A stretch of 64,000 bases of DNA from a virus. Taxonomy: Duplodnaviria > Caudoviricetes. Below, piece by piece: positions 1 through 15,413 of this stretch. The position numbers and the translations under genes are program-made. Position 1 is the stretch's first letter; each line of letters starts with the position of its first letter. The notes under the pieces were generated by a model. The model did not search any database. It was not told where the DNA came from and saw nothing but the letters and a program-made list of their open reading frames with translations. The stretch covers positions 34,758-98,757 of the IMG/VR virus record IMGVR_UViG_3300028454_001166, one strand, 5' to 3'.

Positions 1-1728
1 TTTACCGCGGGTCTGCATACCGGCGAGATCGATCATATTCCCGAGTTCAGCATCAAGTTCTCCCCGTTGTGGTCCATGACTGAATCCGAGCAGGTTGCGC
101 TTGATTTGCAGAAAGCTCAGGTTGAGTCCGCGCGTGCGCAGACGGCGTCCACATACATTCAAAATCAGGTTATCGATCCCGGCGAAGTCCGGAAGAGCCT
201 CGCGGAATCGGACGAGTTCGACATCGAGACGATGCTGGACGATTACACCGAGGAGGAACTTGAAGAGAACGCTCCAAAGGGCGAAGAGGGCGGGATGCCC
301 GGTGAAGGTGGTTTGCCCGGTATGCCTCCCATGGGTGGTGCGCCGGACGGTGGCGGTATGCTTCCCATGGGTGGTGATCCCGGGTCGGGGCAGGAGGCCC
401 CGGCACAGCCCGCACAGGCCGCTTCTGAGCCCGTTTCCGAGAGCGGGGAAGAAGGATACGCCCTGCAAGGAAACAGCCCTGAAACCGCCCCTGAAGCGAC
501 CAAGCTGCCTCAAGACCAGCTCGAGGAAGACCCGGATCATGAAGATGCGGAAAACATGGATGATGAGGACGAAGGGGCAGATAAAATCATATCTCGCCAC
601 GGCAAACCGGACTACGAGGCTCCGGTTCCCGCGGGAGAGGCTTCTTCATGGCTCGTCCAAGACCTCGACCCTCTCATGACGAACAACCCGGACACATCTT
701 CTCCCGATTGGACCGATGATGAGATCAAACGCAGAATCCGTTCTGTGGGTGTTCTGGTAGTTGATCAGTTCGGGAAGATCCTCACTGGTGTGCGTAAGGG
801 CGGAAGCGGTGAGAACTACGGACTGCTTGGCGGTCCCGGTGGCCACGTTGAGCCGGGGGAATCCCTCGAAGACGCGGCTATCCGTGAAACCTATGAGGAG
901 TTCGGGATCGTCCCGAAAGATCTGATGTTCATTTCCCTCGGTCGCTACGAAGAGGACAGTGGGATGATCCCTGCCATCTTTCTTTGCACGGAGTGGGCCG
1001 GAAGGATCTACCCGGTAGACGGGGAGATGGAGAATATCCGGTTCCGGACTATAGACGACATCGAAACACACAAGTTGTTCGGGCCGTTCGAATCTTCTCT
1101 GGAAATACTCGAAAAAGAGTTGACTTCCGAGGATGAAGATGGTAATATAGTGATGGATGAATTCGTGGAGAGCGACCATCCCAGAGATGAAGACGGACGG
1201 TTTTCCAAGAATTCCACATCCGGTGCTAAGAGCGCTTCACCAAGCGGCGGGAAGAGCTCGACGAAATATGCTGAAATTGACGATGATGATGAAGAATATA
1301 ATCCAGATCTTGATGGACCGGGGGAAGAGGCCAAACGAGAGAAAGAGCATGCAATAAGCTACTATAAAGCCGTTAGGCGTCGGCACGGTGATGTCAAGAA
1401 GATCGCAAGGAATACCGGATTTCCCGAGCAAGTGATCGATAGAATTCGTGAACATGTTTTCATGAAGAAGCACGATCTGGGAGACGATAAAATGAAACGC
1501 TTTTCCCCGGATTATGATATGGCACAGTCATGGCAGCGGTTAGTGAAGGGAAAAAACATTCAACCCCATGACGTCACCCTTTTGAAGCATGAACAAAAAG
1601 AGTACGAGCTGATGGATTCGGGACTATCTCAGGATAAAGCCCACGCGTTAGCGACCCGAGAATTTGATTATCAAGGAGAGGTGGAAAAATACAATGGTAA
1701 AAGTCAAAAACATAACAAAGACACCTGA
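1..1728 (+). CDS. Portal protein (DUF1073-type), 5' truncated, with C-terminal extension: acidic/Pro-Gly linker, Nudix hydrolase, HPRD motif, toxin-like tip
   Basis: Frame 1 is open from base 1. It contains IKFSPLWSMTESEQ (the F.PLW..E.E portal C-terminal motif), Nudix box GGHVEPGESLEDAAIRETYEEFG, MDEFVESDHPRDEDGRF and a tip with LLKHEQKE...AHALA. It lies upstream of MuF, protease and capsid genes. Confidence 0.8.
   Translation, partial: FTAGLHTGEIDHIPEFSIKFSPLWSMTESEQVALDLQKAQVESARAQTASTYIQNQVIDPGEVRKSLAESDEFDIETMLDDYTEEELEENAPKGEEGGMPGEGGLPGMPPMGGAPDGGGMLPMGGDPGSGQEAPAQPAQAASEPVSESGEEGYALQGNSPETAPEATKLPQDQLEEDPDHEDAENMDDEDEGADKIISRHGKPDYEAPVPAGEASSWLVQDLDPLMTNNPDTSSPDWTDDEIKRRIRSVGVLVVDQFGKILTGVRKGGSGENYGLLGGPGGHVEPGESLEDAAIRETYEEFGIVPKDLMFISLGRYEEDSGMIPAIFLCTEWAGRIYPVDGEMENIRFRTIDDIETHKLFGPFESSLEILEKELTSEDEDGNIVMDEFVESDHPRDEDGRFSKNSTSGAKSASPSGGKSSTKYAEIDDDDEEYNPDLDGPGEEAKREKEHAISYYKAVRRRHGDVKKIARNTGFPEQVIDRIREHVFMKKHDLGDDKMKRFSPDYDMAQSWQRLVKGKNIQPHDVTLLKHEQKEYELMDSGLSQDKAHALATREFDYQGEVEKYNGKSQKHNKDT
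1120..1148 (+). promoter_or_regulatory. SigmaA-type promoter embedded in portal CDS
   Basis: TTGACT (1120-1125), 17-nt spacer ending TGG, TAATAT (1143-1148); same design as 2156-2184 and 8294-8322. Confidence 0.65.
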
Positions 1729-1930
1729 TTTCATTTCTGGGGAAGCGTATGTTGAAGACTGTCCTACGGCCATTAAGATTTCCGTTGATTCCGAGGGCGG
1801 CATTCGCGCGGACCCGCTTCCCGAAGGGTACGATTGGTGTAAAAAACATCTTCGGTATGCGATTGGGGTTCTCCGACAAGCGCGTAAAATGGAGGATCCT
1901 CCTACCGAACGAACGATAATGTGGTATTGA
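1694..1930 (+). CDS. Small protein, candidate immunity to the portal toxin tip
   Basis: 78 aa (MVKVKNITKT...), overlaps the portal 3' end, followed directly by a terminator. Confidence 0.55.
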   Translation: MVKVKNITKTPDFISGEAYVEDCPTAIKISVDSEGGIRADPLPEGYDWCKKHLRYAIGVLRQARKMEDPPTERTIMWY

Positions 1931-1949
1931 TATAGCAGATCTGACAATG

Positions 1950-1977: not shown

Positions 1978-1996
1978 CATGCCTTCGGAGGACATT

Positions 1997-2584
1997 GTGG
2001 GAAAAGTCGATGAATATATAAAGCGGAGGAGAATCCGGCTTCTTTCCCGGAACGGAGAAACACCTTCATTCTCAGATCGAGTAACGGCTTTCAAGGCCCG
2101 TCGCGCAGCTCGGCTCGACGTACGGAATAAAGAACTTGAAATGCTGAAAAATGGGTTGACTTTCTCCAAATATAATGGTAACATTGCAATGGATGAATTC
2201 GTGGAAGGCGACCATCCACGGGATGAGAACGGGCAATTCGCTAAAGCGAATAGCTCCGAGGCTTCAAGCGAGTCGGGAGCTGAAACGGTAAAACCGCAAC
2301 CCACGACCCCATCTGCAAAAGAGATCCGGTCCCGTTTGATCGGGCAAAAAACGCAGGACGGGCAAACGGTAAAGTCGGTGAGCGACCACGCAGTACAAAG
2401 GGTTCAGGAACGGAAGATCGGTTTTGATACAATCGAGAATTTGTTCCAATCCGGTAACGTTCGGCCCGGACACACACCGAACACGATTTGCTATGAAACC
2501 GATAAGCACAGAGTTGTTTTCGACAAAAACAACGGCAAAATAGTAACCGTGATGCACCGGGGCAATAGAGGAGGCAAGAAATAA
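1997..2584 (+). CDS. Putative head-cargo effector with two Arg-rich leaders, HPRD motif and C-terminal DUF4258/BECR-like RNase domain
   Basis: GTG start after GGAGG; YIKRRRIRLLSR and FKARRAARLDVR; GNIAMDEFVEGDHPRDENGQF; tip SDHAVQRVQERKI...VVFDKNNGKIVTV. Confidence 0.6.
   Translation: MGKVDEYIKRRRIRLLSRNGETPSFSDRVTAFKARRAARLDVRNKELEMLKNGLTFSKYNGNIAMDEFVEGDHPRDENGQFAKANSSEASSESGAETVKPQPTTPSAKEIRSRLIGQKTQDGQTVKSVSDHAVQRVQERKIGFDTIENLFQSGNVRPGHTPNTICYETDKHRVVFDKNNGKIVTVMHRGNRGGKK
2156..2184 (+). promoter_or_regulatory. SigmaA-type promoter embedded in effector CDS
   Basis: TTGACT (2156-2161), N17 ending TGG, TAACAT (2179-2184); a TATAAT also lies at 2171-2176. Confidence 0.65.
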
Positions 2585-2844
2585 TGGACACGAAGGGCTT
2601 TCTTGATCTGCTGAATCAAGAACAAAATGATTTCATCCTCGATGAGTTTTCCATGACGCAGGATCAGCTCCTCGGCCTTTCCGATGAAGGCCTCGACGAG
2701 CTCTACGAAGAGCTGGCAGACATTGAGGTTGAGGAGACGATGAAAGCCGAAGAAACGGGCGCAGCTCTTTCGGACAGAGGCCGGATTGCTTCTGAGATCG
2801 TCACTGTTTGGGGCAACGCCTACGCCGAGATAGACGAGGAGTGA
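2584..2844 (+). CDS. Small acidic protein, candidate immunity to the upstream RNase-like tip
   Basis: 86 aa, very acidic, TAATG overlap with the upstream gene, terminator follows. Confidence 0.6.
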   Translation: MDTKGFLDLLNQEQNDFILDEFSMTQDQLLGLSDEGLDELYEELADIEVEETMKAEETGAALSDRGRIASEIVTVWGNAYAEIDEE

Positions 2845-2864
2845 ACCCGAAAACAAAATACCTG

Positions 2865-2888
2865 AAGGACGGATCCCCGTCCTTTTTT
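2865..2888 (+). terminator. Intrinsic terminator, near copy of 1950-1977
   Basis: AAGGACGG-ATCC-CCGTCCTT-TTTT. Confidence 0.8.
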
Positions 2889-2938
2889 CGTGCCCATGTT
2901 TGAGAGCCGCGTAGGGGCTTATATGGAGGCGTTTTAAC

Positions 2939-3895
2939 GTGAACGAAAAGATACCCGCCCAACTGAAAAACGCGACTGACAAAGCCCCCACGAAGGTCAG
3001 AAGCCGCGTCCGGGCAAAAGGGACGCTCCTGTACCCGGATTCATCCGAACGGGAGTACGCTTCGCTGGCTTTGAAGCACGCCCGGATGTACGGCGACCTG
3101 TTAAAAGAATACCTGCCGGAGATCGAAACGATTCTCCGTGAAACCGCGAGGACGGATTCCAAGGATTACCACGATGATGCGAAAATCCTTGATTTCTCCG
3201 AGCGGTTTTCTCGTACCATCCGGAAGATGGAAAAAGAGCTGGCCGAAAAGCTGGACGATTTCGACACGGAGTACTTCATCAAGAAGGTGGCGAAACGGGC
3301 AAACGGGAGCAACACCCGCCAGTGGTTGCAGCTGATAAAGAAAACCTACGGGATCGATCTTGACGGTCACTACTACAACAAAGGAACGTGGGCGGATATG
3401 ATCGACAGATGGGCCGCGGAAAACGTCGGCTATGTGAAGTCAATTCCGCAGGATTCTCTGGCTACACTTCGCCAGATCGTCCAGAACGGGTACTACGACG
3501 GCTGGGGGGTCATTAAGACCCGGAACGAGATCATGAAGGCTTTCGGGGTTTCCAAGAAAAAAGCAAAGATGCTGGCCGCGGATCAAATGGGTTCCTTGTG
3601 TGCGCAAATAACCCGGAAGAAGCAAACGGACGCCGGGTGCAAACGGTATCGATGGAAAGCCCGAAACGACAACCGTGTTCGGGATGCGCACAGGCAGTAC
3701 AACGGGAAAATCTTCTCATGGGACAACCCGCCGCCCGCGTGGTACATGACCAAGACGAAGGGGAAGGTCTTCACCGGGAGGCATTGTCATCCCGGCGAGG
3801 ATTACTGTTGCCGGTGCATAGCGATACCGATCTTCGATTCGGACACGCTTCAACTGCCCGTGAAGAGCGGATACGAGGAGACCGGACAAACGTGA
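2939..3895 (+). CDS. Minor head morphogenesis protein (MuF / SPP1 gp7 family), no toxin extension
   Basis: YRWKARNDNRVRDAH...GKIFSWDNPP...HPGEDYCCRCIAIP is the Phage_Mu_F signature. Confidence 0.9.
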   Translation: MNEKIPAQLKNATDKAPTKVRSRVRAKGTLLYPDSSEREYASLALKHARMYGDLLKEYLPEIETILRETARTDSKDYHDDAKILDFSERFSRTIRKMEKELAEKLDDFDTEYFIKKVAKRANGSNTRQWLQLIKKTYGIDLDGHYYNKGTWADMIDRWAAENVGYVKSIPQDSLATLRQIVQNGYYDGWGVIKTRNEIMKAFGVSKKKAKMLAADQMGSLCAQITRKKQTDAGCKRYRWKARNDNRVRDAHRQYNGKIFSWDNPPPAWYMTKTKGKVFTGRHCHPGEDYCCRCIAIPIFDSDTLQLPVKSGYEETGQT

Positions 3896-3912
3896 GGAAG
3901 GGAGCAATTGGA

Positions 3913-4758
3913 ATGAATAAAGTACGCGCTTTCCAAGGGCGTCGATATAAGCGGCTCCTCGCAAGGATGGATGCCAACACTGACAAAGGAAAATGGATCA
4001 CAACCGAAAACAATCACAAAGTCCATCTGAACGAGAACGGACAACCAGATATGGGCAACCCTCACGTGATCGCTGCGATGGGTGGTAGCGAGTCCTCAGT
4101 ACAGGTAAGTGATCTCAGTAAGCGGGTTGAGGGACTTAAGAAGATGAAAAAGACCGAACGGCAACAGGAGCTTGCGAGTATTCTCGGTGATATGCCGGTG
4201 GGTTCTCAGATTACAGTTAAGAACCCGGGGCTTCCTGATCAAGTCATAACGAAAAAGGACGCGGAAACCTTCGAGCTTAAGACCACGATGTTTGGTGCAC
4301 CATCCGTTCACGATTCTTCACTCTTCGCATTGTCTCACGGTTTGTCTAATGATAAGAGCAATGCGTATTCGTTCGAAGGCTCCGGCACAATGCAATCTCA
4401 GGCGAAGGCGGAAAGTGGCGTTAATCCCAACGCTAAAACCCCCTCCAATGTATCATCTTCAAGTTCAAGTGGGGGTGGGTCTACAGTGCCCCCCGATGCA
4501 GATGCTCTTGCTAAGACAAAGGCTCAAAAAGCCGCTGAAAAAGCTAAGACTGCGGCCATGCTCAAAAAAGCACAAGCCGCGGTAGCTAAAAAAGAAAAGA
4601 TCTCACAGATTGATAAGGAAATCGAGCAGCTGGAACACGAGATGTATAAGGCCCAGCATTACGGGAATACCGAGATCGGGGATTGGGATCTGTCCCACGA
4701 ACTTGAAATGAAAATCCATAATCTTGAGGAGCAGAAAAAGAAGCTCACAGGGAAGTAA
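3913..4758 (+). CDS. Putative head-cargo protein (leader family), unknown C-terminus
   Basis: ATG 3913 after GGAG; FQGRRYKRLLARMD...GKWITTENNHKVHLNENGQPDMGNPHVI is paralogous to the N-termini at 4781 and 9646. Confidence 0.7.
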   Translation: MNKVRAFQGRRYKRLLARMDANTDKGKWITTENNHKVHLNENGQPDMGNPHVIAAMGGSESSVQVSDLSKRVEGLKKMKKTERQQELASILGDMPVGSQITVKNPGLPDQVITKKDAETFELKTTMFGAPSVHDSSLFALSHGLSNDKSNAYSFEGSGTMQSQAKAESGVNPNAKTPSNVSSSSSSGGGSTVPPDADALAKTKAQKAAEKAKTAAMLKKAQAAVAKKEKISQIDKEIEQLEHEMYKAQHYGNTEIGDWDLSHELEMKIHNLEEQKKKLTGK

Positions 4759-4780
4759 AAGTTAAAGCGAGGCATTTTTG

Positions 4781-7700
4781 ATGAATAAAACGGATGCGTA
4801 CCGTAACCGCCGGTATAAGCGGCTTCTCGCAAGAATGGATGAAGTGGATGGCCATTTCGACGACGAGGGGCATTGGGTCACAACCCACGAAACGAAACGG
4901 CACATACACATAAACGAGAACGGGGTTCCTGATAAGGGCAACCCCTATATTATTGCCAAGATGACCGGGACGAAACCGAAACTCAGCGGCGAATACCGGA
5001 AAAAATCGCTGCAGGAGAGTTTCGGTAAAGGGAATACCGGTAAGGCAGTGCATTCGTTGAAGAGCCTTCCCGAAGGATCGACGATCAAGATGGCAAACGG
5101 AACGGAGTACACAAAGACCGGAAGCGGCTTTGTCAGTTCCAAGAGTAAAACGGGTGGTAAACAGACCCCGCAAGCTCTGGCGAAAATCCTTGATGGTCAT
5201 ACGAAGGCCGGTAAGAACTTCGAGGTCAATCCTTCCGACATTGGCGGGGCTGTCGAAGCGGGGAAAAACACGGGAGCCCCGAAGCCCGGACAGGGTGCTG
5301 AGTCCGAGGCTCCGAGTGCTTCTACGTCAGAATCGGTGCCGGAAACCGCATCAGCATCGTCCCCGGAGATCGATGCGCTTAACACGGTAATCGATCAATG
5401 GGGCGCGGGCAATCAGGTCCCCGCAGTAACCACATTGCAAGCTCTCACGGGTTTAGAAGACGGGACGAAAATCTTAGTTGACGGGTTTACCTTTGAAAAG
5501 CAGTCTGAAATCAGCGCGCTTGGGGCAGGGAAGGTCACTTCCTTTAAGAACACGGACACGGGCGAGGTCTTTAGTAAGGGTACGTTTAAGGCAATCCTGA
5601 AAAGCTATGCAGAGGAAGGTCAGCACGATATAGAGGTGCAAGCGCCCGGTCAATCGACGCCCGCCTCGGCTGAGGCCGCACCTGCTCCGGATGAGGTGGC
5701 CCCGGTTGAAACGGCTTCGACTTCTCCTGAAGTAACCAAATTCAACGACATTCTTTCAGGGTGGGCTGGCCACTACAGCGATGGGACACTTACAGAGGAC
5801 GATATTGCCGCCGCAAATGCTTTGAAGGATGGCACGATTATCTCCGTTAACGGAAAAGATACCTACAAAAAGGTTACCGAACACTCCATGTACGGCGACT
5901 ATCCGTGGTTTGAAAACTTAGAAACCGGGAAATGGTCGAATGTACCCGCGCTGAAAAAAATCGTGGGCGGGGATGACGTACAGGCTGTACAGGTGAAAGA
6001 TCCCGCAAATGATACAACAGTTTCTGCGCCAGCTTCTGAACAAGAGCCTACGCCGACGTCGAGTGCCGAGCCTTCTGCCGAGCAACCGAGTTCTTCTTCC
6101 GGTGGTAAGACGATGAAGGACCTGACAGAGTCCTTGAAAAAGTATCCCCCGACCATGGAGGGGGCGAATAAGTTCTGGAATGAAGTCAATAGCACCTTCG
6201 ATAACGCCCCTGACGGAACTGAGATAACCTTTCCTGATGAAGACGATGGAAAATGGATCAAGGAAACCCACGGGAGCCTGACGCAATGGGTAAACCTCGC
6301 TTCCGGCGATACGATGGATAACAGTGAGATGTCGGCGGCTTTCTTGGATTCCGACTTTGGCAAGGATCTCGATAACATTTCTGCCGGAATAACCTATAAA
6401 GAACCTACCGGCGCGGGGACGCCGGGTTCAAGCTCGAGCGGTTCAAGTGGTTTAGCCTCGCAGGATTATTCGGGCCAAAAAGAAGCCCTTAGCGATCTGA
6501 TCAAAAACGTGCCCGATGCGAGCATTGCCGCCTATGAAACGGTGTTGGATGAATTCCCAGAGGGCACCATCATCAAGGTTGGCGGAAAAACGTATGAAAA
6601 AATTCCGTCCGGGGATTGGGGTGATCCAGATACAGGGTTGCCGCTTGGCGAGTCTTGGGATGTGGGCTACGAGCTGAAGCACTATAACCCTCAACACACC
6701 TTAGACATTTCGATACCCGGAGAAAACACCGCCGCGTCTTCCACCGGCAATGCGAATACACCTACTACGAGTTCTGACCCGGCGCAGTATTCGGCGTCTC
6801 TTTCAGGGGTAAAAAGCGCTGTAGATAAACTGAAACAAGGGAAATTCGTCCATCCGGCAGAGTTCAAAAAGGCGTGTAAGTCAATGAAAGACGGCGATGG
6901 AATCGTCACGAACGGAAAAACCTATATCAAGGGTACAGATTCGTCCGGAAATCCGGTGTTCCACCCTTCTGATTCCCCACAGCACACTTACAGTTCTACC
7001 GGCATGGTGGACATCATGGCATACCAGATCGGTTTGCAAAAAGCCGGTCTCTCAAACGGGGTTTCGTTCAAATCCGGATCGGATCAATCCAGCTCAGGAA
7101 GTACAGCCGGTGCTTCACCCAGCACGGCAGCTCCCACGGCAACACCGAGCGTGGCCGCAAAAGACACGCAGAAATCAATCAAAAATGCTAAGACCAAAGC
7201 CGCCGTCGCTTCGGCTCTGGACGCGCTTCCCGTGGGAACGAAGATCCACATGAAGAACCAAGGGGAAACCGTGTTCACAAAAACGGAGCACGGTTTCTCA
7301 AAAGAGTCTAAGTTCTGGGGCGGGACCATTCACACCCTTACCGATGACGTGGTGAAATATGTTCACGGGAAGAATAAATACGCCGCGCCCTTTGCTATCG
7401 AAGATACTTCTGGCGGAACAACCGATTTCTCGGACGGTTCAAGCTATAAAGCCCCGGCGCATTCGTCTACCGCGTCTTTGCAAAGCCAGTCTTCCTCCTC
7501 CGCCTCGTCCGCTTCATCTTCCGCATCAAGCCCGAAACCGAGTGCTTGGAACGGGCTAAAAGCAAAAGTCCAACATGCCGCCGAAGCGTTCACCCAAGCC
7601 CGGAAGAACGCGGCCCATTGGGATAAAGGGGGCGGAATGGCAACCGATAAACTGCTGAGACCGGTTACAGGAGCAGTATGGAAAAAACTAACTGAGGGGC

Positions 7701-8266
7701 AGAAGAAGAGTCTGGTTGCCTATACCGGGAGCGCTTATGCGAGCATAAATGACGCATTGAGAAACGGAACCGGTAAACGAGCTGCAGACATAAACAACAT
7801 GACAACGGCTATCGATCAGTGCGAAGCGCCCACCGATATATGGCTTCAGAGAGGATGTTCGACATACGCATTGAGTAAGCTGTTCAACACCGATACGATG
7901 ACCCTTGAAAAAGCGCGTTCAAAAGGATCCCAAGCTATTCTTGACCTTTTGTCCACCTCGGCAAACTACGGTCAGGATAAGGGTTTCATGTCATGCGGGT
8001 CTTCGAAAGGGAAGGGCTTTTCCTCTAACGATGTGATTTTGAACGTGTACTGTCCGAAAGGCACGAAGATGATGTATGCGGAACCGTTCTCCCACTATGG
8101 CGCGACAAGTGCCGGAGCTACGTGGAACGGCTCGTCTGGTACAACTCATGTTTCAGGCGAACACGAAACAATCCTGCAAAGGGGGACAATGCTCCGTCCC
8201 ACAAAGGTCACGGTGTCTAACGGTAAGATATACGTGGATGTAGACGTAATCGGTCAAAACTACTAA
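4781..8266 (+). CDS. Large putative head-cargo protein with internal repeats and C-terminal VIP2/Alt-like ADP-ribosyltransferase
   Basis: Leader YRNRRYKRLLARMD; C-terminal YTGSAYASINDALR, WLQRG, GFMSCG and EHETILQRG give the R-S-ExE ART motifs. Confidence 0.8.
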   Translation: MNKTDAYRNRRYKRLLARMDEVDGHFDDEGHWVTTHETKRHIHINENGVPDKGNPYIIAKMTGTKPKLSGEYRKKSLQESFGKGNTGKAVHSLKSLPEGSTIKMANGTEYTKTGSGFVSSKSKTGGKQTPQALAKILDGHTKAGKNFEVNPSDIGGAVEAGKNTGAPKPGQGAESEAPSASTSESVPETASASSPEIDALNTVIDQWGAGNQVPAVTTLQALTGLEDGTKILVDGFTFEKQSEISALGAGKVTSFKNTDTGEVFSKGTFKAILKSYAEEGQHDIEVQAPGQSTPASAEAAPAPDEVAPVETASTSPEVTKFNDILSGWAGHYSDGTLTEDDIAAANALKDGTIISVNGKDTYKKVTEHSMYGDYPWFENLETGKWSNVPALKKIVGGDDVQAVQVKDPANDTTVSAPASEQEPTPTSSAEPSAEQPSSSSGGKTMKDLTESLKKYPPTMEGANKFWNEVNSTFDNAPDGTEITFPDEDDGKWIKETHGSLTQWVNLASGDTMDNSEMSAAFLDSDFGKDLDNISAGITYKEPTGAGTPGSSSSGSSGLASQDYSGQKEALSDLIKNVPDASIAAYETVLDEFPEGTIIKVGGKTYEKIPSGDWGDPDTGLPLGESWDVGYELKHYNPQHTLDISIPGENTAASSTGNANTPTTSSDPAQYSASLSGVKSAVDKLKQGKFVHPAEFKKACKSMKDGDGIVTNGKTYIKGTDSSGNPVFHPSDSPQHTYSSTGMVDIMAYQIGLQKAGLSNGVSFKSGSDQSSSGSTAGASPSTAAPTATPSVAAKDTQKSIKNAKTKAAVASALDALPVGTKIHMKNQGETVFTKTEHGFSKESKFWGGTIHTLTDDVVKYVHGKNKYAAPFAIEDTSGGTTDFSDGSSYKAPAHSSTASLQSQSSSSASSASSSASSPKPSAWNGLKAKVQHAAEAFTQARKNAAHWDKGGGMATDKLLRPVTGAVWKKLTEGQKKSLVAYTGSAYASINDALRNGTGKRAADINNMTTAIDQCEAPTDIWLQRGCSTYALSKLFNTDTMTLEKARSKGSQAILDLLSTSANYGQDKGFMSCGSSKGKGFSSNDVILNVYCPKGTKMMYAEPFSHYGATSAGATWNGSSGTTHVSGEHETILQRGTMLRPTKVTVSNGKIYVDVDVIGQNY

Positions 8267-8293
8267 CCTCGAAATTAAACCGGTTATTACTGC

Positions 8294-8322
8294 TTGACTT
8301 TTTTCATGCTTTATGGTAATAT
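8294..8322 (+). promoter_or_regulatory. SigmaA-type promoter for the 8354/8654 gene pair
   Basis: TTGACT-N14-TGG-TAATAT, intergenic. Confidence 0.75.
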
Positions 8323-8353
8323 GGGTTTACCTAATATGAGGGGGTAACATTTC

Positions 8354-8608
8354 ATGGCGAAAGAAGGAAAGATGAAGCCTCGTGATTGGGATGAGGGATT
8401 CGGTGATAACGCTGAACACGGCGCGGAAGAAACGCCTTGCACCGATTGCGTTTTTCGTCGAATTGTCACAAGCGCAGATGGTAGGGTGATAGATACCGGA
8501 AAAGGATCTACCTGCAAGGCCTATCCCGAGCTCAAACCGCTCGAGGTGATGATGTATGGGGCCGAGTGCCCGAAATATCAGAAGGATAAACACGAAAAGA
8601 ACCTCTGA
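8354..8608 (+). CDS. Small Cys-rich protein, candidate ART partner/immunity
   Basis: 84 aa; PCTDC...CKAYP...ECPKY; lies between the ART and the ADP-ribosylglycohydrolase. Confidence 0.55.
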   Translation: MAKEGKMKPRDWDEGFGDNAEHGAEETPCTDCVFRRIVTSADGRVIDTGKGSTCKAYPELKPLEVMMYGAECPKYQKDKHEKNL

Positions 8609-8653
8609 GGCAAAGAGGATACCGAAAATGAACCCAAACAGGGAGGCAAACGC

Positions 8654-9574
8654 ATGATAGGAGCCATCATCGGTGACATCGTCGGCTCGGTCTACGAGTT
8701 CGACAATCATCGATCAAAGATTTTTCCGCTTTTTGATTCTCGCTGTGCGCTGACAGACGACAGCATAATGACGCTGGCCATCGCAAGAGCGCTCACGATC
8801 TACGGGCAGCAGGGGACGTATGAAAACCTGCAATCTGAGACGATCCGGCAGATGCAGAGGGTCGGTCGATGCTACCCCGATTGCGGTTGGGGCGGGCGTT
8901 TCGGAAGGTGGATCTTCTCAGACGATCCGAAGCCATACAACAGCTTCGGGAATGGCGCGGCTATGCGGGTCAGCGCGATTGTCGCCGCGGCTCCAAACCT
9001 CGAAACGGCGAAGCTGTGGACGAAGCTGGTAACCGAGATTTCGCACAACCACCCGGAAGGGATCAAAGGCGCACTTGCGACGGTTGAGCTTGCGTGGATA
9101 GCAAAAGAGGCCAGAAAACGCACGAATCCAAAATGCAAAGATCGCATTTTCAAAGCCGCTTTGAAATACTACCCGGAAAAAGACTTCGCCGGAGATTTCA
9201 ACCTTGATGCGATCCGCCCCAAATACCGATTCAACGAAACCTGCCAAGAGACGGTTCCGCAAGCCATCGAAGCGTTCCTTGAATCGAGAGATTTTGAGGA
9301 CGCTATTCGAAATGCGATCTCAATCGGCGGGGACAGCGACACGTTAGCCGCAATTACAGGGACTATCGCCGAGGCCTTCTACGGGGTGAAGCAGGAGCAT
9401 AAAGCAAAAGCGCTCAAATACTTCGACAGCCTCCAATACGGAATCTACAGTGAGTTTTCAGCTATGTACAACGATCTGCCCGTATTCGGAGAGCTGTCCG
9501 GAGAAATCGCATTCCGAACAACCGAAGACGGATCCATCGGCGGGATTTCTACGATGGGAGACGTCATTGGGTAA
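8654..9574 (+). CDS. ADP-ribosylglycohydrolase (DraG/ARH family)
   Basis: MIGAIIGDIVGS, TDD, SFGNGAAMR, SHNHPEG and GGDSDT motifs. Confidence 0.92.
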   Translation: MIGAIIGDIVGSVYEFDNHRSKIFPLFDSRCALTDDSIMTLAIARALTIYGQQGTYENLQSETIRQMQRVGRCYPDCGWGGRFGRWIFSDDPKPYNSFGNGAAMRVSAIVAAAPNLETAKLWTKLVTEISHNHPEGIKGALATVELAWIAKEARKRTNPKCKDRIFKAALKYYPEKDFAGDFNLDAIRPKYRFNETCQETVPQAIEAFLESRDFEDAIRNAISIGGDSDTLAAITGTIAEAFYGVKQEHKAKALKYFDSLQYGIYSEFSAMYNDLPVFGELSGEIAFRTTEDGSIGGISTMGDVIG

Positions 9575-9593
9575 TCCCGCGAACTGAATACCG

Positions 9594-9618
9594 AAGACGC
9601 AGAAATGCGTCTTTTCTT
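9594..9618 (+). terminator. Intrinsic terminator
   Basis: AAGACGCA-GAAA-TGCGTCTT-TTCTT. Confidence 0.75.
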
Positions 9619-9645
9619 ATTTCCCCGTTGAAAGGAGGGGTCGGC

Positions 9646-11313
9646 ATAAAAGGCAACAACATAAGTCGTTTCAAACAGCGACGCGCTGAACGTCTAATAC
9701 AAAGAGCGTTTAATGCGGATGCCCGTTTTGACGAGGACAAGGGAAAATGGGTGACGACCCACGAAAAGAAGCGTCGAATCCACATAAACGAAAACGGAAT
9801 CCCGGATAAAGGGAACCCCTTTGTCATAGCCAAGATGACCGGGTCTAAGCCCAAGGTCAGCACTGGCTACAAAAAGAAGAATCTTCACGATCTTCTTGTA
9901 AAGGGCAAATCCGACAAAGCTGTAAAAGCTCTGAAAGCCTTGGAAGAAGGTTCCACTATCACGCTGGAAAACGGCACACAGTACACGAAGACGGGGAGCG
10001 GCTTTGTCAGCTCGAAGGGAAAAACTGGCGGCAAACAAACCCCGCAAGCCATAGCGAAGATCCTCCATGGTCACTCCGGAGGCGGGAAGGACTTTACGGT
10101 TGGTGATCCCAAACCCGATGCAGTTCCCGAGGCAAAAGCGCCTAAAACGTCAACCGTCCCAACCTACCCGAAGACATACAGCAAGGGTCAGCTTGGCGCG
10201 TCCCATAGTTCTCATATGGGAGACGATCCGGTAGACATTCCGAAAGGTCCGCCTAAAACCTATAAATCCGACTCCGGCCACGAATTCGTGGACGCGGGTA
10301 ATATTCTATCAAGCGTCAAATCAACCGATACGACGAAAGACATCATCGAGAAGCAGGGATTCAGCGGTTTGCCTCGACGGGTATCAAAAGAGGAATTTCA
10401 AAAGATTGCAAAACAGAGTGGTTTCGTTTCGAAGCGAACATATAGCGCGGCCTCTCAGGAGCTCGCAGACGAATATCGAAAACAGCTCTACGAAGGGGAC
10501 TTTTTCGTGGACTGCACCGTAGGCGGTGCACAATACGGGCAAGGAATGTATTGTGCCGCCGATTACACCGGCAACGGATACAACGCGGGCATCGACGAAG
10601 AGATGAAGCACTACCAAAAATTGAATGTCGCGCGGCAAGCAGATAACGCTTTCATCTTAGGGGCTTCAACCGAAGATCTGAACAAGGCCATAGACGAGTG
10701 TAAGGCCGCGGGTAAGTACAGCTGGAACGGAATGGGTTACAAGCACATGACCCCTGCCGAGCATGAGGCGTTTAAGAAGTTTGTAACGCATCAGAAGCTC
10801 AGCCCAAAAGAAGAAGAGGCCATGGCAAAGCACGGCGGTTTTTCGGATGTTCAGTTCGTGCTGTCCACTGATGTCGGGTGGAGCAACTATGGAACGGTTT
10901 CCGTAGGAAGCACTAAGAGCGCTACCAAGAACAAGTTCCTCTCGACATATAAGGGGTACAAAAAGACCGAAGTGGTCACGTTGGACCCGAGCGCGAAGAT
11001 TATTAGTTTCAATGCTCTAAAGGCGAAATACAAGGCCTATAAAGGTACGAAACCGAAAGATCTGGGTGCCTTCGCCGCGGCTATGGGCTACGATGCGATC
11101 AACGCCTACGGCCATGGTAAATCCGGGTCCTACACCGTTATTCTCAACCGGACAAAATGTGTATTTATGGATCGGCCTATCAATGGCGACTCGGTAGATG
11201 AGCCGAAGGAATCCCGTATCAAGTTCATCCCCGGCAAGCATGGCCGGTTCCACGCATATCGGGACGGTCAATATCTGGGGTGGGTGGACACCTACGTCGG
11301 CGGTCAGAACTGA
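9646..11313 (+). CDS. Putative head-cargo protein, N-terminus paralogous to 4781, C-terminal PARP-like ADP-ribosyltransferase candidate
   Basis: Leader FKQRRAERLIQR; about 130 aa closely similar to the 4781 N-terminus; tip QGFSGLP...YGQGMY...GYDAI...YTVILNR. Start is uncertain (ATA 9646 after a strong SD, or TTG 9628). Confidence 0.6.
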   Translation: MKGNNISRFKQRRAERLIQRAFNADARFDEDKGKWVTTHEKKRRIHINENGIPDKGNPFVIAKMTGSKPKVSTGYKKKNLHDLLVKGKSDKAVKALKALEEGSTITLENGTQYTKTGSGFVSSKGKTGGKQTPQAIAKILHGHSGGGKDFTVGDPKPDAVPEAKAPKTSTVPTYPKTYSKGQLGASHSSHMGDDPVDIPKGPPKTYKSDSGHEFVDAGNILSSVKSTDTTKDIIEKQGFSGLPRRVSKEEFQKIAKQSGFVSKRTYSAASQELADEYRKQLYEGDFFVDCTVGGAQYGQGMYCAADYTGNGYNAGIDEEMKHYQKLNVARQADNAFILGASTEDLNKAIDECKAAGKYSWNGMGYKHMTPAEHEAFKKFVTHQKLSPKEEEAMAKHGGFSDVQFVLSTDVGWSNYGTVSVGSTKSATKNKFLSTYKGYKKTEVVTLDPSAKIISFNALKAKYKAYKGTKPKDLGAFAAAMGYDAINAYGHGKSGSYTVILNRTKCVFMDRPINGDSVDEPKESRIKFIPGKHGRFHAYRDGQYLGWVDTYVGGQN

Positions 11314-11653: not shown

Positions 11654-11992
11654 GTGGTACGGATGCCGGAGAAAGAAATGAGCGTCATTGAAACCATCTG
11701 CCAGCAGATGATTAAGTCTGCGGGGGATGTCATCGCGCTCGAGCAGGTTATATCTCGGCTGGAAGACCACAATAACGATAAGGTGTTGGAGCTGTTTGAA
11801 CACCTGCAAATCTCCAATCTGGAAGCCCTGCAAACCTTGACAGTCGCCTTAACGGGTGAAATGCTGGAATCCCGGAAGACCGAAAACGATGATTCGGATG
11901 ATGGCGGCGTCTTTGCGCCGGGGGAGCTCGATTGGAAAAAGAAAGCCGAGGTGATCGGCCACGGTGAAACGGAGGAAGAAGCCGATGAATAA
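11654..11992 (+). CDS. Hypothetical head-region protein
   Basis: GGGAGGT SD; overlaps the protease gene start. Confidence 0.55.
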   Translation: MVRMPEKEMSVIETICQQMIKSAGDVIALEQVISRLEDHNNDKVLELFEHLQISNLEALQTLTVALTGEMLESRKTENDDSDDGGVFAPGELDWKKKAEVIGHGETEEEADE

Positions 11993-13826
11993 GACCATGC
12001 CTAAGCTGGTTCACGTCACACGGCTTGACAGTTTCCCCGTAACCCGTGCAACGTACACGGATGAAGGTTATCTGTCCGACCGACCGATTCTGACGTCAAC
12101 CGGAATCTTCGAGTACAAAAACAAAGATGGCTCGATCAGACGGGAGCTGAGGCTCCCGGAGGAAGTTTTTGACCCTGAAAGTCTTGAATCCTATAAAGGG
12201 AAGCCCATCGTGATAACACACGATGCCGGGCTTATTAACCGTGACAATGTTCAGGAAAATCAGATAGGGACGATCCTCAGCGCCGGTGAGCGCGACGGGG
12301 ATGATGTTCGGGCTGACATCATGATTCATGATACAAAGGCCCTGAAAAACTGTCGATTCAAGGAACTGTCGCTCGGTTACAACCTCGACCTTGAAGAGGA
12401 ACCGGGAGAATGGGAAGGGCAGAAATATGATGCCATCCAGCGGAACATCCGCGTGAACCATCTTGCCGTTGTCAGGGAGGCAAGGGCGGGAGATCAGGCG
12501 CGGCTGAACATAGATAGCCGTTCCGATAACACAATCTTAACAGGAGGACATAGGACTATGGCCAAGAAGAAGACCCGCCGTAAATACAACAACGACGGCA
12601 TCCTCAGCCCTGAACAGCTGCAGGAAGCAATCGCAAAGTATAAGGCGGAACAGGCGGCGCTTGCCGCTGAAAATCAGGACGAAGATCCTGATGAAGAGGC
12701 CGAGGAACTCGCAAAGACCGAGGTTGTAAACCCCGAGGCCGATGTGCAGAAGAATGAGCTGAACAAGGATACGGACAAGCCGGTTCCTGCTCCGCAGAAT
12801 ACCGCGCCGCAGGTGCTCCCCCCGAAGAAGCCCGTGGCTCCGAGCATCCCGCTCCCGAGTCAGGACAGGCCCATTGAGGAGAAGCTCGACGCGGTGAAGC
12901 ACAGACGCGATCTCCGCGACGAGAAGGGTGACCCCAAGGACCTTAATGAGGCCATGGAAAGCATCGCTGAATACGACGAGGAGCACGATTATTATCGTGA
13001 CATCATCGACACCCTTCTCGCTGAACGTGACTTCGAAAAGGGTAAGAAGGCCGACTCTGCGCAGGAGCCCATCCCCGACACCGAGACCGCTGAAATCGGT
13101 GACAAGGGCAAGGAGAAAGACGAGGACTGTGTGGACAACAAGCTCGACTCCGAAGACGCTGACACCCCCTTCACCGATGAAGAAGAGGTAAAGGAAGACG
13201 ACGAGGAAGACACCGACCCGTTTGGTGACGAGGACTTCGCTGACGAAGATCTCACCGAAAACGAGGGTGAGGAAGAGGATCCGGCTTTTGCCGATTCTGA
13301 CCTCGGCGACCCGGACTCCGCTGATCCCGATAACGAGGACGACGATGACGAAGAGGCACTTCCCGACTACGATCTCACCGATCCCGACATCGACGATGCA
13401 GATGAGGAGGAGGAATCCTACCCGCGTCTGAATCAGGATTCTATCGACCGGGCTGTTCGGAAAGAAGTGCAAAGACGGCTCGCCATCGCCAAGGTAGGCC
13501 AGCGGCTCAACATGGACGGTCTGGAAACCATGAGCCTCCGCAAAGCGAAGCGCATGGTCATTAAGAAGGTTTATCCTTCTGTCCGGCTCGACGGTAAGAG
13601 TGACGCCTACATCAACGGTATGTACAACTGCTGCGTAAAAGAGCTGAAGAAACACCCCCGGAAGGATACCGCCTACCAGAAGCGGCAGATGTTCAATAAG
13701 GTGTTCAACAAGGACTCTCAGGACTTCGATAACACCGATTCCGCGGCAACCGCGCGTGACAAGATGATCGAACGGCAGCTGGATCGCAAGCCGGAACGTC
13801 ATAGCGTTCGTGCGGAAAAGAAATAA
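11985..13826 (+). CDS. Prohead protease (DUF2213-type) fused to acidic scaffold
   Basis: TDEGYL...TGIFEY...ELRLPEEVF...GKPIVITH...ELSLGY...QRNIRVNHLAVVREARAG; long acidic C-terminal half; internal SD+ATG at 12558. Confidence 0.88.
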   Translation: MNKTMPKLVHVTRLDSFPVTRATYTDEGYLSDRPILTSTGIFEYKNKDGSIRRELRLPEEVFDPESLESYKGKPIVITHDAGLINRDNVQENQIGTILSAGERDGDDVRADIMIHDTKALKNCRFKELSLGYNLDLEEEPGEWEGQKYDAIQRNIRVNHLAVVREARAGDQARLNIDSRSDNTILTGGHRTMAKKKTRRKYNNDGILSPEQLQEAIAKYKAEQAALAAENQDEDPDEEAEELAKTEVVNPEADVQKNELNKDTDKPVPAPQNTAPQVLPPKKPVAPSIPLPSQDRPIEEKLDAVKHRRDLRDEKGDPKDLNEAMESIAEYDEEHDYYRDIIDTLLAERDFEKGKKADSAQEPIPDTETAEIGDKGKEKDEDCVDNKLDSEDADTPFTDEEEVKEDDEEDTDPFGDEDFADEDLTENEGEEEDPAFADSDLGDPDSADPDNEDDDDEEALPDYDLTDPDIDDADEEEESYPRLNQDSIDRAVRKEVQRRLAIAKVGQRLNMDGLETMSLRKAKRMVIKKVYPSVRLDGKSDAYINGMYNCCVKELKKHPRKDTAYQKRQMFNKVFNKDSQDFDNTDSAATARDKMIERQLDRKPERHSVRAEKK

Positions 13827-14378: not shown

Positions 14379-15413
14379 ATGGCAAACAAGCACAGATCCT
14401 ATGAGAAGGACGAGGCGAGAGCTCTTCGGGACTCTGGTATTGCGAAAGCGATCATCGCCTCTGAAGGCACTCGTTTCGACAGCGCTGAGGAAGCATCTGT
14501 TTTCTTCGCCCGTGAGCTGGATTTCGTCAAGAGCCAGTCCTACGACGTTGAATACCCCGAACTGACCGCGCTGAACATCTTCCCGATCAGCACCGAAGCT
14601 GATGAGGGCGCGGAAACCATCACCTACTACACCTACGACAAGAAGGGCGTCGCCAAGATCATCGACAGCTATTCTACGGACCTTCCGAGAGCTGACGTGG
14701 ATGGTACCCCCTCTGTCGCCAAGATCAAGTCTCTCGGTGCTTCCTACGGTTACTCCGCTCAGGAAATGAGAGCGTCCCGTCTCGCCGGTAAGGGGCTGGA
14801 TGCCCGGAAAGCCGAGTCCGCAAGATGGGCTATCGACTCCGCGAACAACAAGATCGCGTGGGCCGGTGATACCGCTTCCGGTCTGATGGGCGTTCTTTCT
14901 GCGGGTCAGTCTATCCCGCTGTACACCATCCTCGCTGATGGTTCCGGTAAGACCAAGTGGACCGAAAAGGACCCCGACGCCATCCTTGACGACATCAACG
15001 GCATGGCGAAGCAGGTGGCCAGAACCACGAAGAACGTGGAACGCCCCGATACCCTCTGCGTCCCTGCCGATGTGTATATGCACATCGCAACCAAGAGAAT
15101 CCCGCAGACCGCTACCTCCGTGCTGAACTACCTCCTCGAGAACGCTCCGTACATCAAGGAGATCGTCAGCGCGGCTGAGCTGGATGCCGATTCCGTTGAG
15201 ACCAACCCCTACGCCGCGGCTTCCGGTGGTCAGGGCGTCGCCTTCCTGTTCAAGAAGGACAAGAAGAAGCTCTCCCTCGAGAACCCGATGCCCTTCAACC
15301 AGTACACCGCCCAGACCAGAAATCTGGAAACCATCATCCCCTGCGAAGCCAGAACTGCGGGCGTCATCGTGTACTACCCCCTGTCCTGCCTGATCGCTAT
15401 CGGCGTTTCCTAA
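14379..15413 (+). CDS. Major capsid protein (DUF2184-type, HK97 fold)
   Basis: FFARELDFVKSQSYDVEYPEL, YGYSAQE, IAWAGD, GVIVYYP; strongly biased codons. Confidence 0.9.
   Translation: MANKHRSYEKDEARALRDSGIAKAIIASEGTRFDSAEEASVFFARELDFVKSQSYDVEYPELTALNIFPISTEADEGAETITYYTYDKKGVAKIIDSYSTDLPRADVDGTPSVAKIKSLGASYGYSAQEMRASRLAGKGLDARKAESARWAIDSANNKIAWAGDTASGLMGVLSAGQSIPLYTILADGSGKTKWTEKDPDAILDDINGMAKQVARTTKNVERPDTLCVPADVYMHIATKRIPQTATSVLNYLLENAPYIKEIVSAAELDADSVETNPYAAASGGQGVAFLFKKDKKKLSLENPMPFNQYTAQTRNLETIIPCEARTAGVIVYYPLSCLIAIGVS

What the first reader, a model, noticed from the sequence alone, without database searches (positions are those of the whole stretch)
1997..11313. Family of putative capsid-cargo effectors sharing an [FY]xxRRxxRLxxR leader, independent of MuF
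Seen: five exact instances of [FY]-x2-RR-x2-RL-x2-R near the N-termini of four head-module proteins: YIKRRRIRLLSR and FKARRAARLDVR (1997), FQGRRYKRLLAR (3913), YRNRRYKRLLAR (4781) and FKQRRAERLIQR (9646). An x-x-D motif follows (AMD, RMD, RMD, NAD/RFD), then unrelated C-termini: RNase-like, unknown, VIP2-like ART and PARP-like ART. MuF here has no toxin tail. Established: MuF-fused phage polymorphic toxins exist, and T4 internal proteins use a cleavable capsid-targeting leader. Inference: this is a portable packaging signal that loads interchangeable effectors into the prohead, is removed at maturation, and delivers them with the DNA. It is the best candidate for an undescribed system in the window.
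Basis: partly seen in the sequence, partly recalled or inferred. Interest (0 to 1): 0.88.

Follow-up and report, generated by a model that had tools for sequence, protein, structure and literature searches.

The report
Shared arginine-rich tag on phage-head cargo
A prophage related to Faecalibacterium phage FP_Brigit starts four toxin-like proteins encoded among its head-assembly genes with the same arginine-rich helix, which resembles a helix in the phage's own scaffold protein and is most likely an undescribed tag for loading swappable effectors into the capsid, although no loading has been measured.

Summary
Five exact [FY]xxRRxxRLxxR matches sit at 2015, 2090, 3931, 4799 and 9670, 5-8 residues into four head-module proteins (one of these starts is non-canonical) (0.04 expected by chance). 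In the whole 4.3-Mb genome, a leader profile finds nothing else.

The leader is the front of a larger unit. It is followed by a junction motif, either a GxW[VI]TT..H.N..G.PD.GNP beta-meander or HPRDxxGxF.

A profile of the unit finds 237 protein clusters, 55-2042 aa long. C-termini include ADP-ribosyltransferase, lethal-factor-like and reprolysin-like peptidases, Zeta toxin and glutamine deamidase; most are unknown. No Pfam or PHROG model covers the unit.

All 72 leader hits in related loci lie on the head-gene strand. None lies downstream of the scaffold gene.

The same DUF4258 cassette (94% identical) is fused to the portal in a sister phage and carries two leaders here.

In relatives without leader genes, the leader profile matches a helix of the scaffold/protease protein. 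Leader genes co-occur with a hyperacidic scaffold (19/19 against 1/24).

Packaging, cleavage and injection remain untested, and the "PARP-like" label is unsupported.

Other agents of this scan reported the same tag in at least five other genomes. I found no published description.

The parts
1..1728 (+). 3' part of the portal gene. It encodes an acidic linker, a NUDIX domain, the HPRDEDGRF junction motif (at 1177) and a 175-aa C-terminal tip of unknown family.
   Evidence: PF00293 and phrog_15528; HPRD motif; no Pfam hit for the tip.
1664..1930 (+). 88-aa ORF overlapping the portal stop. It is a candidate immunity protein for the portal tip.
   Evidence: ORF list; no family hit; role inferred from position only.
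1997..2584 (+). Leader protein 1. It has two tandem Arg-rich leaders (2015-2050 and 2090-2125), then the HPRDENGQF junction (2213-2239) and a DUF4258 toxin-like domain. The likely start is GTG 1997, behind the Shine-Dalgarno site GGAGGA and a terminator hairpin at about 1955-1978.
   Evidence: Its HPRD-DUF4258 part is 94% identical to the C-terminus of the L003 portal.
2584..2844 (+). 86-aa acidic protein. It is a candidate immunity protein for the DUF4258 domain and keeps the same position behind the portal-fused cassette in L003/L004.
   Evidence: no significant family hit.
2939..3895 (+). Short MuF head-morphogenesis protein with no toxin tail.
   Evidence: PF04233 E 5.7e-16 at residues 178-295 of 318.
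3913..4758 (+). Leader protein 2 (281 aa). The leader is at 3931-3966 and the full module (helix plus WITT meander) at 3913-4110. A small beta domain and a C-terminal coiled coil follow; there is no enzyme domain.
   Evidence: AF2 model: H2-23, E27-30, E36-39, E45-48, H50-56, with pLDDT about 78-89 in the module.
4781..8266 (+). Leader protein 3 (1161 aa). The leader is at 4799-4834 and the module at 4781-4990. Repeated small beta domains separated by Ser/Thr/Ala/Pro linkers follow, then a C-terminal ADP-ribosyltransferase (about 7682-8239) with R, S-x-S and ExE motifs.
   Evidence: PF03496 E 1.7e-17; phrog_16625 (Bxa) and phrog_802 (Alt-like); sequence read.
8354..8608 (+). 84-aa Cys-rich protein. 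[quoted passage not shown]
   Evidence: ORF; no family hit; analogy to PMC11699363.
8654..9574 (+). ADP-ribosylglycohydrolase. It is the likely enzymatic antidote to the ADP-ribosyltransferase, in the position that BAH holds in the Bxa system.
   Evidence: PF03747 E 2.5e-29; PMC11699363.
9646..11313 (+). Leader protein 4 (555 aa). The leader is at 9670-9705 and the module at 9646-9870. The ~370-aa C-terminal domain belongs to no known family. The start is probably a non-canonical ATA at 9646, 8 nt behind AGGAGG.
   Evidence: No hits. AF2 model of low confidence.
11964..13826 (+). DUF2213/Pa193_gp24 protease-scaffold gene. It has a conserved internal Shine-Dalgarno site plus ATG at 12558 (possible nested scaffold start). 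A weakened leader-like helix (AIAKYKAEQAALAAENQDED) follows about 26 residues later. The most acidic 60-residue window is about 13176-13355 (36 of 60 residues are D or E).
   Evidence: PF09979 E 1.6e-34; PDB 9b40 gp24 match.
14379..15413 (+). Major capsid protein. Its N-terminus carries the conserved ...TRFD-SAEEASVFFARELD..., which shares the R-[FML]-D-[SA] motif that ends the leaders.

Best explanation
The leader is a head-incorporation tag for a MuF-independent set of polymorphic phage effectors.

Each cargo protein starts with a ~22-residue arginine-rich amphipathic helix that ends in R-[MLF]-D plus an acidic patch. A short junction motif follows, either the WVTT beta-meander or HPRDxxGxF, and then an exchangeable payload. 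Antidote genes lie next to the payload genes.

The helix resembles one that sits about 25 residues into the phage's own, probably nested, scaffolding protein. Tagged proteins would therefore join the scaffold core of the procapsid. The likely contact is electrostatic, with the hyperacidic stretch of the scaffold; an alternative is whatever partner the scaffold helix itself uses, such as the portal.

After DNA packaging the cargo stays in the head and leaves with the DNA into the next host.

Shown: the motif, its family-wide conservation, its restriction to the head block, the variable toxin C-termini, its equivalence to a portal fusion, and its similarity to the scaffold helix.

Inferred: physical loading, the receptor, cutting at R-[MLF]-D, and injection.
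For: (1) Five motifs against 0.04 expected. In the whole genome, the four best leader-profile hits are four of the five leaders and the next E-value is 0.42.

(2) A profile search of 1.84 billion representatives gives 237 clusters at E<=1e-3, 55-2042 aa long. The match is mostly at residues 1-67.

(3) C-termini of the 150 best hits: ADPrib_exo_Tox 21, ATLF 3, and one each of Zeta toxin, Gln_amidase and reprolysin. Most have no family.

(4) All 72 leader hits in 21 non-redundant loci lie on the head-gene strand. 43 lie between portal and scaffold and 8 upstream of the portal. The rest are on contigs that lack one or both marker genes. None lies downstream of the scaffold. 65 of 72 are in the first 70 residues of the ORF.

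(5) The HPRD-DUF4258 cassette is 94% identical whether fused to the portal C-terminus (L003) or free-standing with two leaders in the window. The module is also found inside a portal ORF (L031).

(6) In 80 loci anchored on the scaffold gene rather than on the leader, the leader profile matches the scaffold itself in leader-less phages (EELAKAIEEYKARRAQRLAAKADED; best E 2.9e-5). It matches no other protein class.

(7) Leader-bearing genes occur only beside hyperacidic scaffolds: 19 of 19, against 1 of 24.

(8) The layout of ADP-ribosyltransferase, small ORF and ADP-ribosylglycohydrolase copies the characterised MuF toxin Bxa/Bsi/BAH (PMC11699363). T4 Alt is a precedent for a packaged, injected ADP-ribosyltransferase (PMC5512222).

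(9) In Pbunavirus Pa193, products of genes between portal and scaffold (gp20, gp21) were detected in virions (PMC11456595).
Against: There are no virion proteomics, cleavage data or packaging assays for any member.

Every leader-bearing phage belongs to one clade. The scaffold-domain tree is poorly resolved, so a single origin of both leader genes and acidic scaffold is not excluded. The two are also adjacent, so linkage alone could explain their co-occurrence.

The scaffold-helix match is short and arginine/alanine-rich. It counts as one family-level match, not 25 independent ones.

The nearest cultured relative, FP_Brigit, has no leader genes, so no laboratory system is at hand.

The tag also occurs inside long proteins. 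This does not fit a simple N-terminal signal unless those proteins are cut.
Confidence: 0.55

Rival explanations
1. The motif is mainly a recognition and cleavage site of the prohead protease (the DUF2213 N-domain). It would mark head proteins for processing at R-[MLF]-D, and loading would depend on something else, such as the WVTT or HPRD unit.
For: R-[MLF]-D-[AES] ends 69 of 75 leaders. RFD-SA is nearly invariant at the capsid-protein N-terminus. A-M-D-E and R-M-D-F precede the HPRD junctions in portals. The Pa193 capsid protein is visible only from residue 66. The module occurs inside long proteins that could be polyproteins.
Against: No cleavage specificity is known for this protease family. 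The arginine stripe is conserved far beyond what a three-residue site needs. This reading is compatible with the best explanation (load and cut) rather than exclusive of it.
Confidence: 0.13
2. The helix is a nucleic-acid-binding arginine-rich motif. It would tether the effectors to the phage DNA, inside the head or in the new host, or bind RNA, rather than dock on a head protein.
For: From my own recall, the composition and spacing resemble the arginine-rich peptides of lambdoid N proteins. MuF protein SPP1 gp7 is described as a component of the phage head in phages that use the portal-terminase packaging system (PMC5512222).
Against: Head proteins are normally built into procapsids before DNA enters. 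The same helix type sits in the scaffold, which leaves the head. The strict co-occurrence with a hyperacidic scaffold points to a protein partner. No binding was tested.
Confidence: 0.12
3. The proteins are toxins released at lysis, as reported for Bxa, and the arginine-rich helix helps them enter target cells in the manner of a cell-penetrating peptide.
For: [quoted passage not shown] From general knowledge, arginine-rich helices can cross membranes.
Against: This does not explain the restriction to the head block, the interchange with portal fusions, the similarity to the scaffold helix, or the internal copies.
Confidence: 0.07
4. The shared N-terminus is only common ancestry or a recombination handle for swapping cassettes, and has no targeting role.
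For: Conserved 5' ends favour cassette exchange in polymorphic toxin loci (PMC3482391). The HPRD junction is clearly a breakpoint.
Against: Conservation is at the protein level across 237 clusters sharing less than 50% identity, with invariant R, R, R, W, T and G positions. This implies selection on the peptide.
Confidence: 0.06

Closest known systems
MuF polymorphic toxins of temperate phages (Jamet et al. 2017, PMC5576092; Bxa/Bsi/BAH, PMC11699363; Apk2)
   Same: These are also encoded in the head-morphogenesis block of prophages. They combine a conserved N-terminal part with variable C-terminal toxins (ADP-ribosyltransferase, glutamine deamidase, alarmone synthetase and others), with enzymatic and non-enzymatic antidote genes next to them. 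They are likewise predicted to be carried in the capsid.
   Different: Here the carrier is not MuF. MuF is a separate short gene. The toxins instead carry a ~60-residue helix-plus-meander unit that no Pfam or PHROG model covers, and there are several tagged genes per phage rather than one.
Capsid targeting sequence (CTS) of phage T4 internal proteins IPI-III and Alt, removed by prohead protease gp21
   Same: It is a short N-terminal peptide shared by otherwise unrelated head-cargo proteins, one of which is an injected ADP-ribosyltransferase. It is the functional analogue of what is proposed here.
   Different: There is no sequence similarity. T4 cutting at [LI]xE is demonstrated, whereas cutting here (perhaps at R-[MLF]-D) is only inferred. 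The phage lineage and the protease family also differ.
Portal- and MuF-fused effectors / polyvalent proteins (Iyer et al. 2017, PMC5512222)
   Same: The portal in this window and in relatives carries NUDIX plus a toxin-like tip. The same junction motifs (HPRD, WxT..G.H) precede payloads in both fused and tagged forms.
   Different: The tagged proteins are free-standing and mostly carry a single payload. The tag replaces covalent fusion.
Nested protease/scaffold genes (lambda C/Nu3, Mu I/Z) and Pa193 gp24 putative scaffold (PMC11456595)
   Same: The DUF2213 gene has a protease-like N-domain homologous to Pa193 gp24. It also has a conserved internal Shine-Dalgarno site plus ATG.
   Different: The leader-like helix and the hyperacidic stretch are not described for Pa193 gp24. 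The nested start is an inference from sequence.
Encapsulin cargo-loading peptides
   Same: A short peptide addresses diverse cargo to the interior of an HK97-fold shell.
   Different: The sequence is unrelated, it binds the shell directly, and there is no scaffold or DNA. The resemblance is analogy only and was not tested.

Membership tests
MuF polymorphic toxin family | N-terminal MuF domain (PF04233/PF06152 or MuF3/4) fused to the toxin | tested here: not met
   No MuF domain in the four leader proteins. MuF is the separate 318-aa gene at 2939-3895. No MuF family appears among the tallied Pfam families of the 150 hits.
MuF polymorphic toxin family | Encoded in the head/packaging module of a (pro)phage, next to the portal | tested here: met
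   The window lies inside a contig of the bacterial assembly; prophage boundaries and contig binning were not checked.
Polymorphic toxin systems (general, Zhang et al. 2012) | Conserved N-terminal trafficking part with variable C-terminal toxin domains | tested here: met
   237 clusters share the N-terminal unit. C-termini include ADP-ribosyltransferase, ATLF, Zeta toxin, Gln_amidase, reprolysin-like peptidase, DUF4258 and many unknown domains.
Polymorphic toxin systems (general, Zhang et al. 2012) | Cognate immunity gene immediately downstream | tested here: inconclusive
   The ADP-ribosylglycohydrolase and small ORFs lie in the expected places. An HD_4 hydrolase follows a RelA/SpoT-like payload in L001 (payload identified by eye). 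No neutralisation was tested.
T4-type capsid targeting sequence | N-terminal peptide necessary and sufficient for incorporation into the prohead core | not testable with these tools
   Requires virion proteomics or reporter fusions.
T4-type capsid targeting sequence | Removal by the prohead protease at a defined site | not testable with these tools
   There is only a shared R-[MLF]-D-[AS] motif in leaders and at the capsid-protein N-terminus.
Polyvalent proteins (Iyer et al. 2017) | Two or more effector domains in one polypeptide | tested here: not met
   The window proteins each have one recognisable payload or none. Some relatives have several modules in one protein.
C3/VIP2-type ADP-ribosyltransferases (PF03496), for the 4781 gene | Pfam match above the cut-off, with R, S-x-S and ExE motifs | tested here: met
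   63.9 bits against a cut-off of 23.4. LQRG, SCGSS and EHE are seen in the translation. Activity was not tested.
PARP-like ADP-ribosyltransferase, for the 9646 gene | Detectable ART fold or H-Y-E signature | tested here: inconclusive
   No Pfam, PHROG or PDB hit. AF2 pLDDT is 44. The Atlas lead to ART-PolyVal scores only 0.80.

The most novel reading that the evidence does not exclude
The tag is a molecular mimic of the phage's own scaffold helix. Cargo proteins would pose as scaffold subunits and dock on a co-evolved hyperacidic scaffold stretch. The DUF2213 protease would then trim them at R-[MLF]-D and they would be injected. If so, this is a sequence-readable, transferable address code for loading arbitrary proteins into HK97-fold phage heads. 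It would let the injected effector set of many uncultured gut phages be listed from sequence alone.
Probability: 0.35. Interest if true: 0.8.

Novelty: new variant of a known kind. Interest (0 to 1): 0.68.

Why it matters
Phage proteins that travel with the DNA act first in a new host, for example in host take-over or against defence systems. In lysogens they also serve as weapons or fitness factors, as Bxa does in the gut. They are hard to recognise unless they are fused to MuF or the portal.

Most of these proteins carry unknown enzyme domains.

The link to a scaffold helix and to an acidic scaffold gives a concrete, testable loading mechanism. It also suggests a possible handle for loading chosen proteins into capsids.

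Tried and rejected
- A tblastn of the 70-aa module against 50,697 GenBank phage records found no match.
- A pattern scan of GTDB genome contigs found none.
- 300 genomes of the same order had no other match. The tag is therefore rare in reference genomes, and the host range could not be named.
- A Foldseek search of the AF2 model of the 281-aa protein against the PDB gave nothing at E<=0.001, so the fold gives no clue for the module.
- AF2 of the C-terminal domain of the 9646 protein failed (pLDDT 44). The PDB profile search and a loose Pfam search were empty.
- I asked whether the leader-like scaffold helix corresponds to the capsid-bound helix-turn-helix of Pa193 gp24 (residues 286-326). Only the N-domains align, so no correspondence can be claimed.
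- I tried independent contrasts for the association between leader genes and an acidic scaffold. The tree is too poorly resolved: only one pair lies on supported branches.
- The greedy gene-calling tally was imperfect because wrong-frame ORFs displaced real genes. I replaced it with a per-hit tally.


Full report
**What is in the window.**

Positions 1-15,413 hold the head module of a prophage. The window is G000:C45:273642-337641 of a 4.3-Mb bacterial assembly. The genes, in order, are:
- the 3' part of a portal gene whose product continues into a NUDIX domain, an HPRDEDGRF motif and a 175-aa tip (1-1728);
- a 195-201-aa protein with a borderline DUF4258 hit (1997-2584);
- an 86-aa acidic protein;
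- a short MuF (2939-3895);
- a 281-aa protein (3913-4758);
- a 1161-aa ADP-ribosyltransferase (4781-8266, PF03496);
- an 84-aa Cys-rich protein;
- an ADP-ribosylglycohydrolase (8654-9574);
- a 555-aa protein of unknown family (9646-11313);
- the DUF2213/Pa193_gp24 protease-scaffold gene (11964-13826);
- a cement protein and the major capsid protein.

The nearest cultured phage is Faecalibacterium phage FP_Brigit, with 59.5% capsid-protein identity.

**The observation.**

The regex [FY]..RR..RL..R matches five times in six frames, at 2015, 2090, 3931, 4799 and 9670. All matches are in the + strand reading frames of four of these proteins. Shuffles give 0.04 on average.

Three of the four genes have a Shine-Dalgarno site and a start codon 5-8 residues upstream of the aromatic residue. 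The fourth most likely starts at a non-canonical ATA, 8 nt behind AGGAGG.

A 26-position profile of the leader alone has the consensus MMDKVKAYRKRRAKRLLARMDADEDE. I ran it over all 54,585 six-frame ORFs of the genome. The top four hits were four of these leaders, and the next E-value was 0.42.

MuF has no C-terminal extension.

**The leader is part of a larger unit.**

In three proteins the helix runs into G-x-W-[VI]-T-T-x(4-5)-H-x-N-E-x-G-x-P-D-x-G-N-P. AF2 models this as helix 2-23 followed by a three-stranded meander and a short helix, with pLDDT of about 78-89.

In the fourth protein, two leaders are followed instead by ...MDEFVEGDHPRDENGQF. The same motif sits in the portal just before its tip.

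Relatives show further combinations:
- leader plus HPRD;
- leader plus a WxTIKGTHV variant;
- leader alone;
- the WVTT unit behind other N-terminal helices.

**Family and distribution.**

A profile of the 70-residue unit was searched against 1.84 billion representative proteins. It found 237 clusters at E<=1e-3 and 156 at E<=1e-10. Lengths range from 55 to 2042 aa.

Among the hits examined, 123 modules are at the N-terminus and 50 are internal. Sixteen proteins have several copies.

Pfam on the 150 best hits shows ADPrib_exo_Tox in 21 and the anthrax-lethal-factor-like peptidase domain in 3. Zeta toxin, glutamine deamidase, a reprolysin-like peptidase, DnaJ and a portal+NUDIX protein appear once each. 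Most hits have nothing.

No Pfam or PHROG model covers the unit.

It is absent from 50,697 GenBank phage records by tblastn, from FP_Brigit by profile and from 300 genomes of the same order.

**Genomic context.**

In every locus long enough to judge, the tagged genes lie in the head block of phages with homologous portal, MuF, scaffold, cement and capsid genes.

I counted leader-profile hits at E<=0.01 in 21 non-redundant loci. There are 72, all on the head-gene strand:
- 43 between portal and scaffold;
- 8 between terminase and portal;
- 12 next to one of the two marker genes on contigs that lack the other;
- 9 on short contigs with neither marker;
- none downstream of the scaffold.

65 of the 72 lie in the first 70 residues of the ORF. 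Phages carry 1-6 tagged genes in the stretch held.

The caveat is that all these phages are one clade.

**Equivalence to a portal fusion.**

In L003 and L004 the portal ends NUDIX - HPRD junction - DUF4258, followed by the same small acidic ORF.

In the window the portal has a different tip behind the same junction. The HPRD-DUF4258 cassette is 94% identical over 136 residues, but it stands alone behind two leaders.

In L031 the module lies inside the portal ORF.

A payload can therefore be attached to the head either covalently through the portal or through the leader. This is the strongest comparative argument that the leader does the job of a head anchor.

**Link to the scaffold.**

Eighty IMG/VR loci were fetched with the scaffold N-domain as bait, independently of the leader. 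They fall into two classes.

Where leader-bearing genes are present, the scaffold has a hyperacidic stretch (33-46 D/E in the most acidic 60-residue window). This holds for 19 of 19 such phages.

Where leader-bearing genes are absent, the scaffold is not hyperacidic in 23 of 24 phages.

In many of the second class, the leader profile matches the scaffold itself at residues ~225-250 (EELAKAIEEYKARRAQRLAAKADED). Most distinct scaffold sequences give E-values from 2.9e-5 to 9e-3. No other protein class among 15,406 ORFs matches.

This helix lies about 25 residues behind a conserved internal Met. The preceding Lys-Gly-Gly codons spell AAAGGAGGA, which is seen in 45 of 48 scaffolds caught by my pattern (window ATG at 12558). 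That suggests a nested scaffold protein of the lambda C/Nu3 or Mu I/Z kind.

The window's own scaffold keeps a weakened version of the helix (AIAKYKAEQAALAAENQDED).

On the best tree of the scaffold N-domain, the two traits change together about six times. Supported branches, however, allow a single origin, and the genes are adjacent. The association is therefore suggestive only.

**Possible cutting.**

R-[MLF]-D-[A/E/D] ends 69 of 75 leaders. The capsid protein of every relative has ...[RH]FD-S[AV][ED]xAS[VA]FFARELD near its N-terminus. The junctions in portals are preceded by A-M-D-E or R-M-D-F.

In Pa193 the capsid protein is visible only from residue 66.

Cutting at this motif by the DUF2213 protease is a reasonable guess, but nothing here tests it.

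**Comparison with what is known.**

MuF-fused polymorphic toxins (PMC5576092), the 'MuF phage-capsid-like' trafficking mode (PMC3482391) and portal- or MuF-fused effectors (PMC5512222) are established ideas.

Bxa/Bsi/BAH is a characterised MuF-ADP-ribosyltransferase with an ADP-ribosylhydrolase and a small inhibitor as antidotes (PMC11699363). The window repeats that layout without the MuF fusion.

T4's CTS is the functional precedent for a short shared head-loading peptide.

The present tag fails the defining test of the MuF family because it has no MuF domain. It has no sequence relation to the T4 CTS.

Full-text searches found no description of it.

Other agents of this scan reported the same arginine-rich tag in at least five other genomes. 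One of them also noted the scaffold-helix similarity. Those are unchecked AI notes. I reached the scaffold result before reading them, on different loci.

**Verdict.**

This is a real, conserved and so far undescribed N-terminal unit on swappable toxin-like proteins in the head block of a clade of phages from metagenomes whose nearest cultured relative is FP_Brigit. It is most likely a head-loading tag related to a scaffold helix.

It is a new variant of a known kind, namely capsid-delivered polymorphic phage effectors.

Loading, cutting and injection remain to be shown.

Noticed in passing
window 12540-12560; same place in L001-L112 scaffold genes: There is a conserved internal Shine-Dalgarno site (AAAGGAGGA, encoded by Lys-Gly-Gly) plus an ATG just after the protease-like domain of the DUF2213 gene. 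This suggests a nested scaffold protein like lambda Nu3 or Mu Z (45 of 48 scaffolds caught by the pattern).
   Followed up: partly
window 1-1728; L003:5977-8652; L004:4921-8658; L001:2999-6916; FP_Brigit gp30: Portal proteins of this clade carry a NUDIX domain and then a variable tip behind an HPRDxxGxF junction. Some (L001, L004) have additional large inserts introduced by a W-I-T-x-K-N-G-V-H-[IV]-P-L motif. The window's 175-aa tip has no family hit.
   Followed up: partly
P0019, P0076, P0079, P0084, P0093 and others; L015:8759, L016:5683, L027:8180: Several tagged proteins of relatives also carry DS[AV]FF[AE]GELD...YP[ED] near their start. This resembles the capsid-protein N-terminal segment ASVFFARELDYVKSQSYDVEYPE and may be a second head-protein mimic.
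   Followed up: partly
window 11654-11992; L001:14658-15062; L004:17262-17822: The small ORF just upstream of, and overlapping, the scaffold gene ends in G-x-VF-x-x-GELD followed by an acidic tail. This again recalls the capsid N-terminal motif. Its function is unknown.
   Followed up: no
window 4781-8266 (about residues 90-950): The ADP-ribosyltransferase protein contains about eight copies of a ~60-90-residue small beta domain (L-x-x-L-P-x-G-T-x-I-x-x-x-G-x-x-Y-x-K...). The copies are separated by Ser/Thr/Ala/Pro-rich linkers. The domain also occurs once in the 281-aa and 555-aa proteins. Weak fold hits point to SH3/Tudor/KOW-like domains only.
   Followed up: partly
window 9628-9650; L003:13304; L004:15481: The 555-aa leader protein and its orthologues appear to start at non-canonical codons (ATA/ATT/CTG) behind a strong AGGAGG site. 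Public gene calls therefore miss the leader (P0009, P0010 and P0012 start downstream).
   Followed up: partly
L001:7834-9901: A leader protein whose C-terminus looks, by eye, like a RelA/SpoT-type alarmone synthetase is followed by a 77-aa ORF and an HD_4 hydrolase. This matches the Apk2/Aph1-type toxin-antidote layout.
   Followed up: no
window 1955-1978 and 9594-9620: Terminator-like hairpins with T-runs lie directly upstream of the 1997 and 9646 leader genes. This suggests that those genes are transcribed separately or by read-through.
   Followed up: no
G000 as a whole: The assembly is 4.3 Mb, whereas sampled genomes of the same family are 1.5-2.6 Mb. I did not check the binning of contig C45 or the prophage boundaries.
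   Followed up: no
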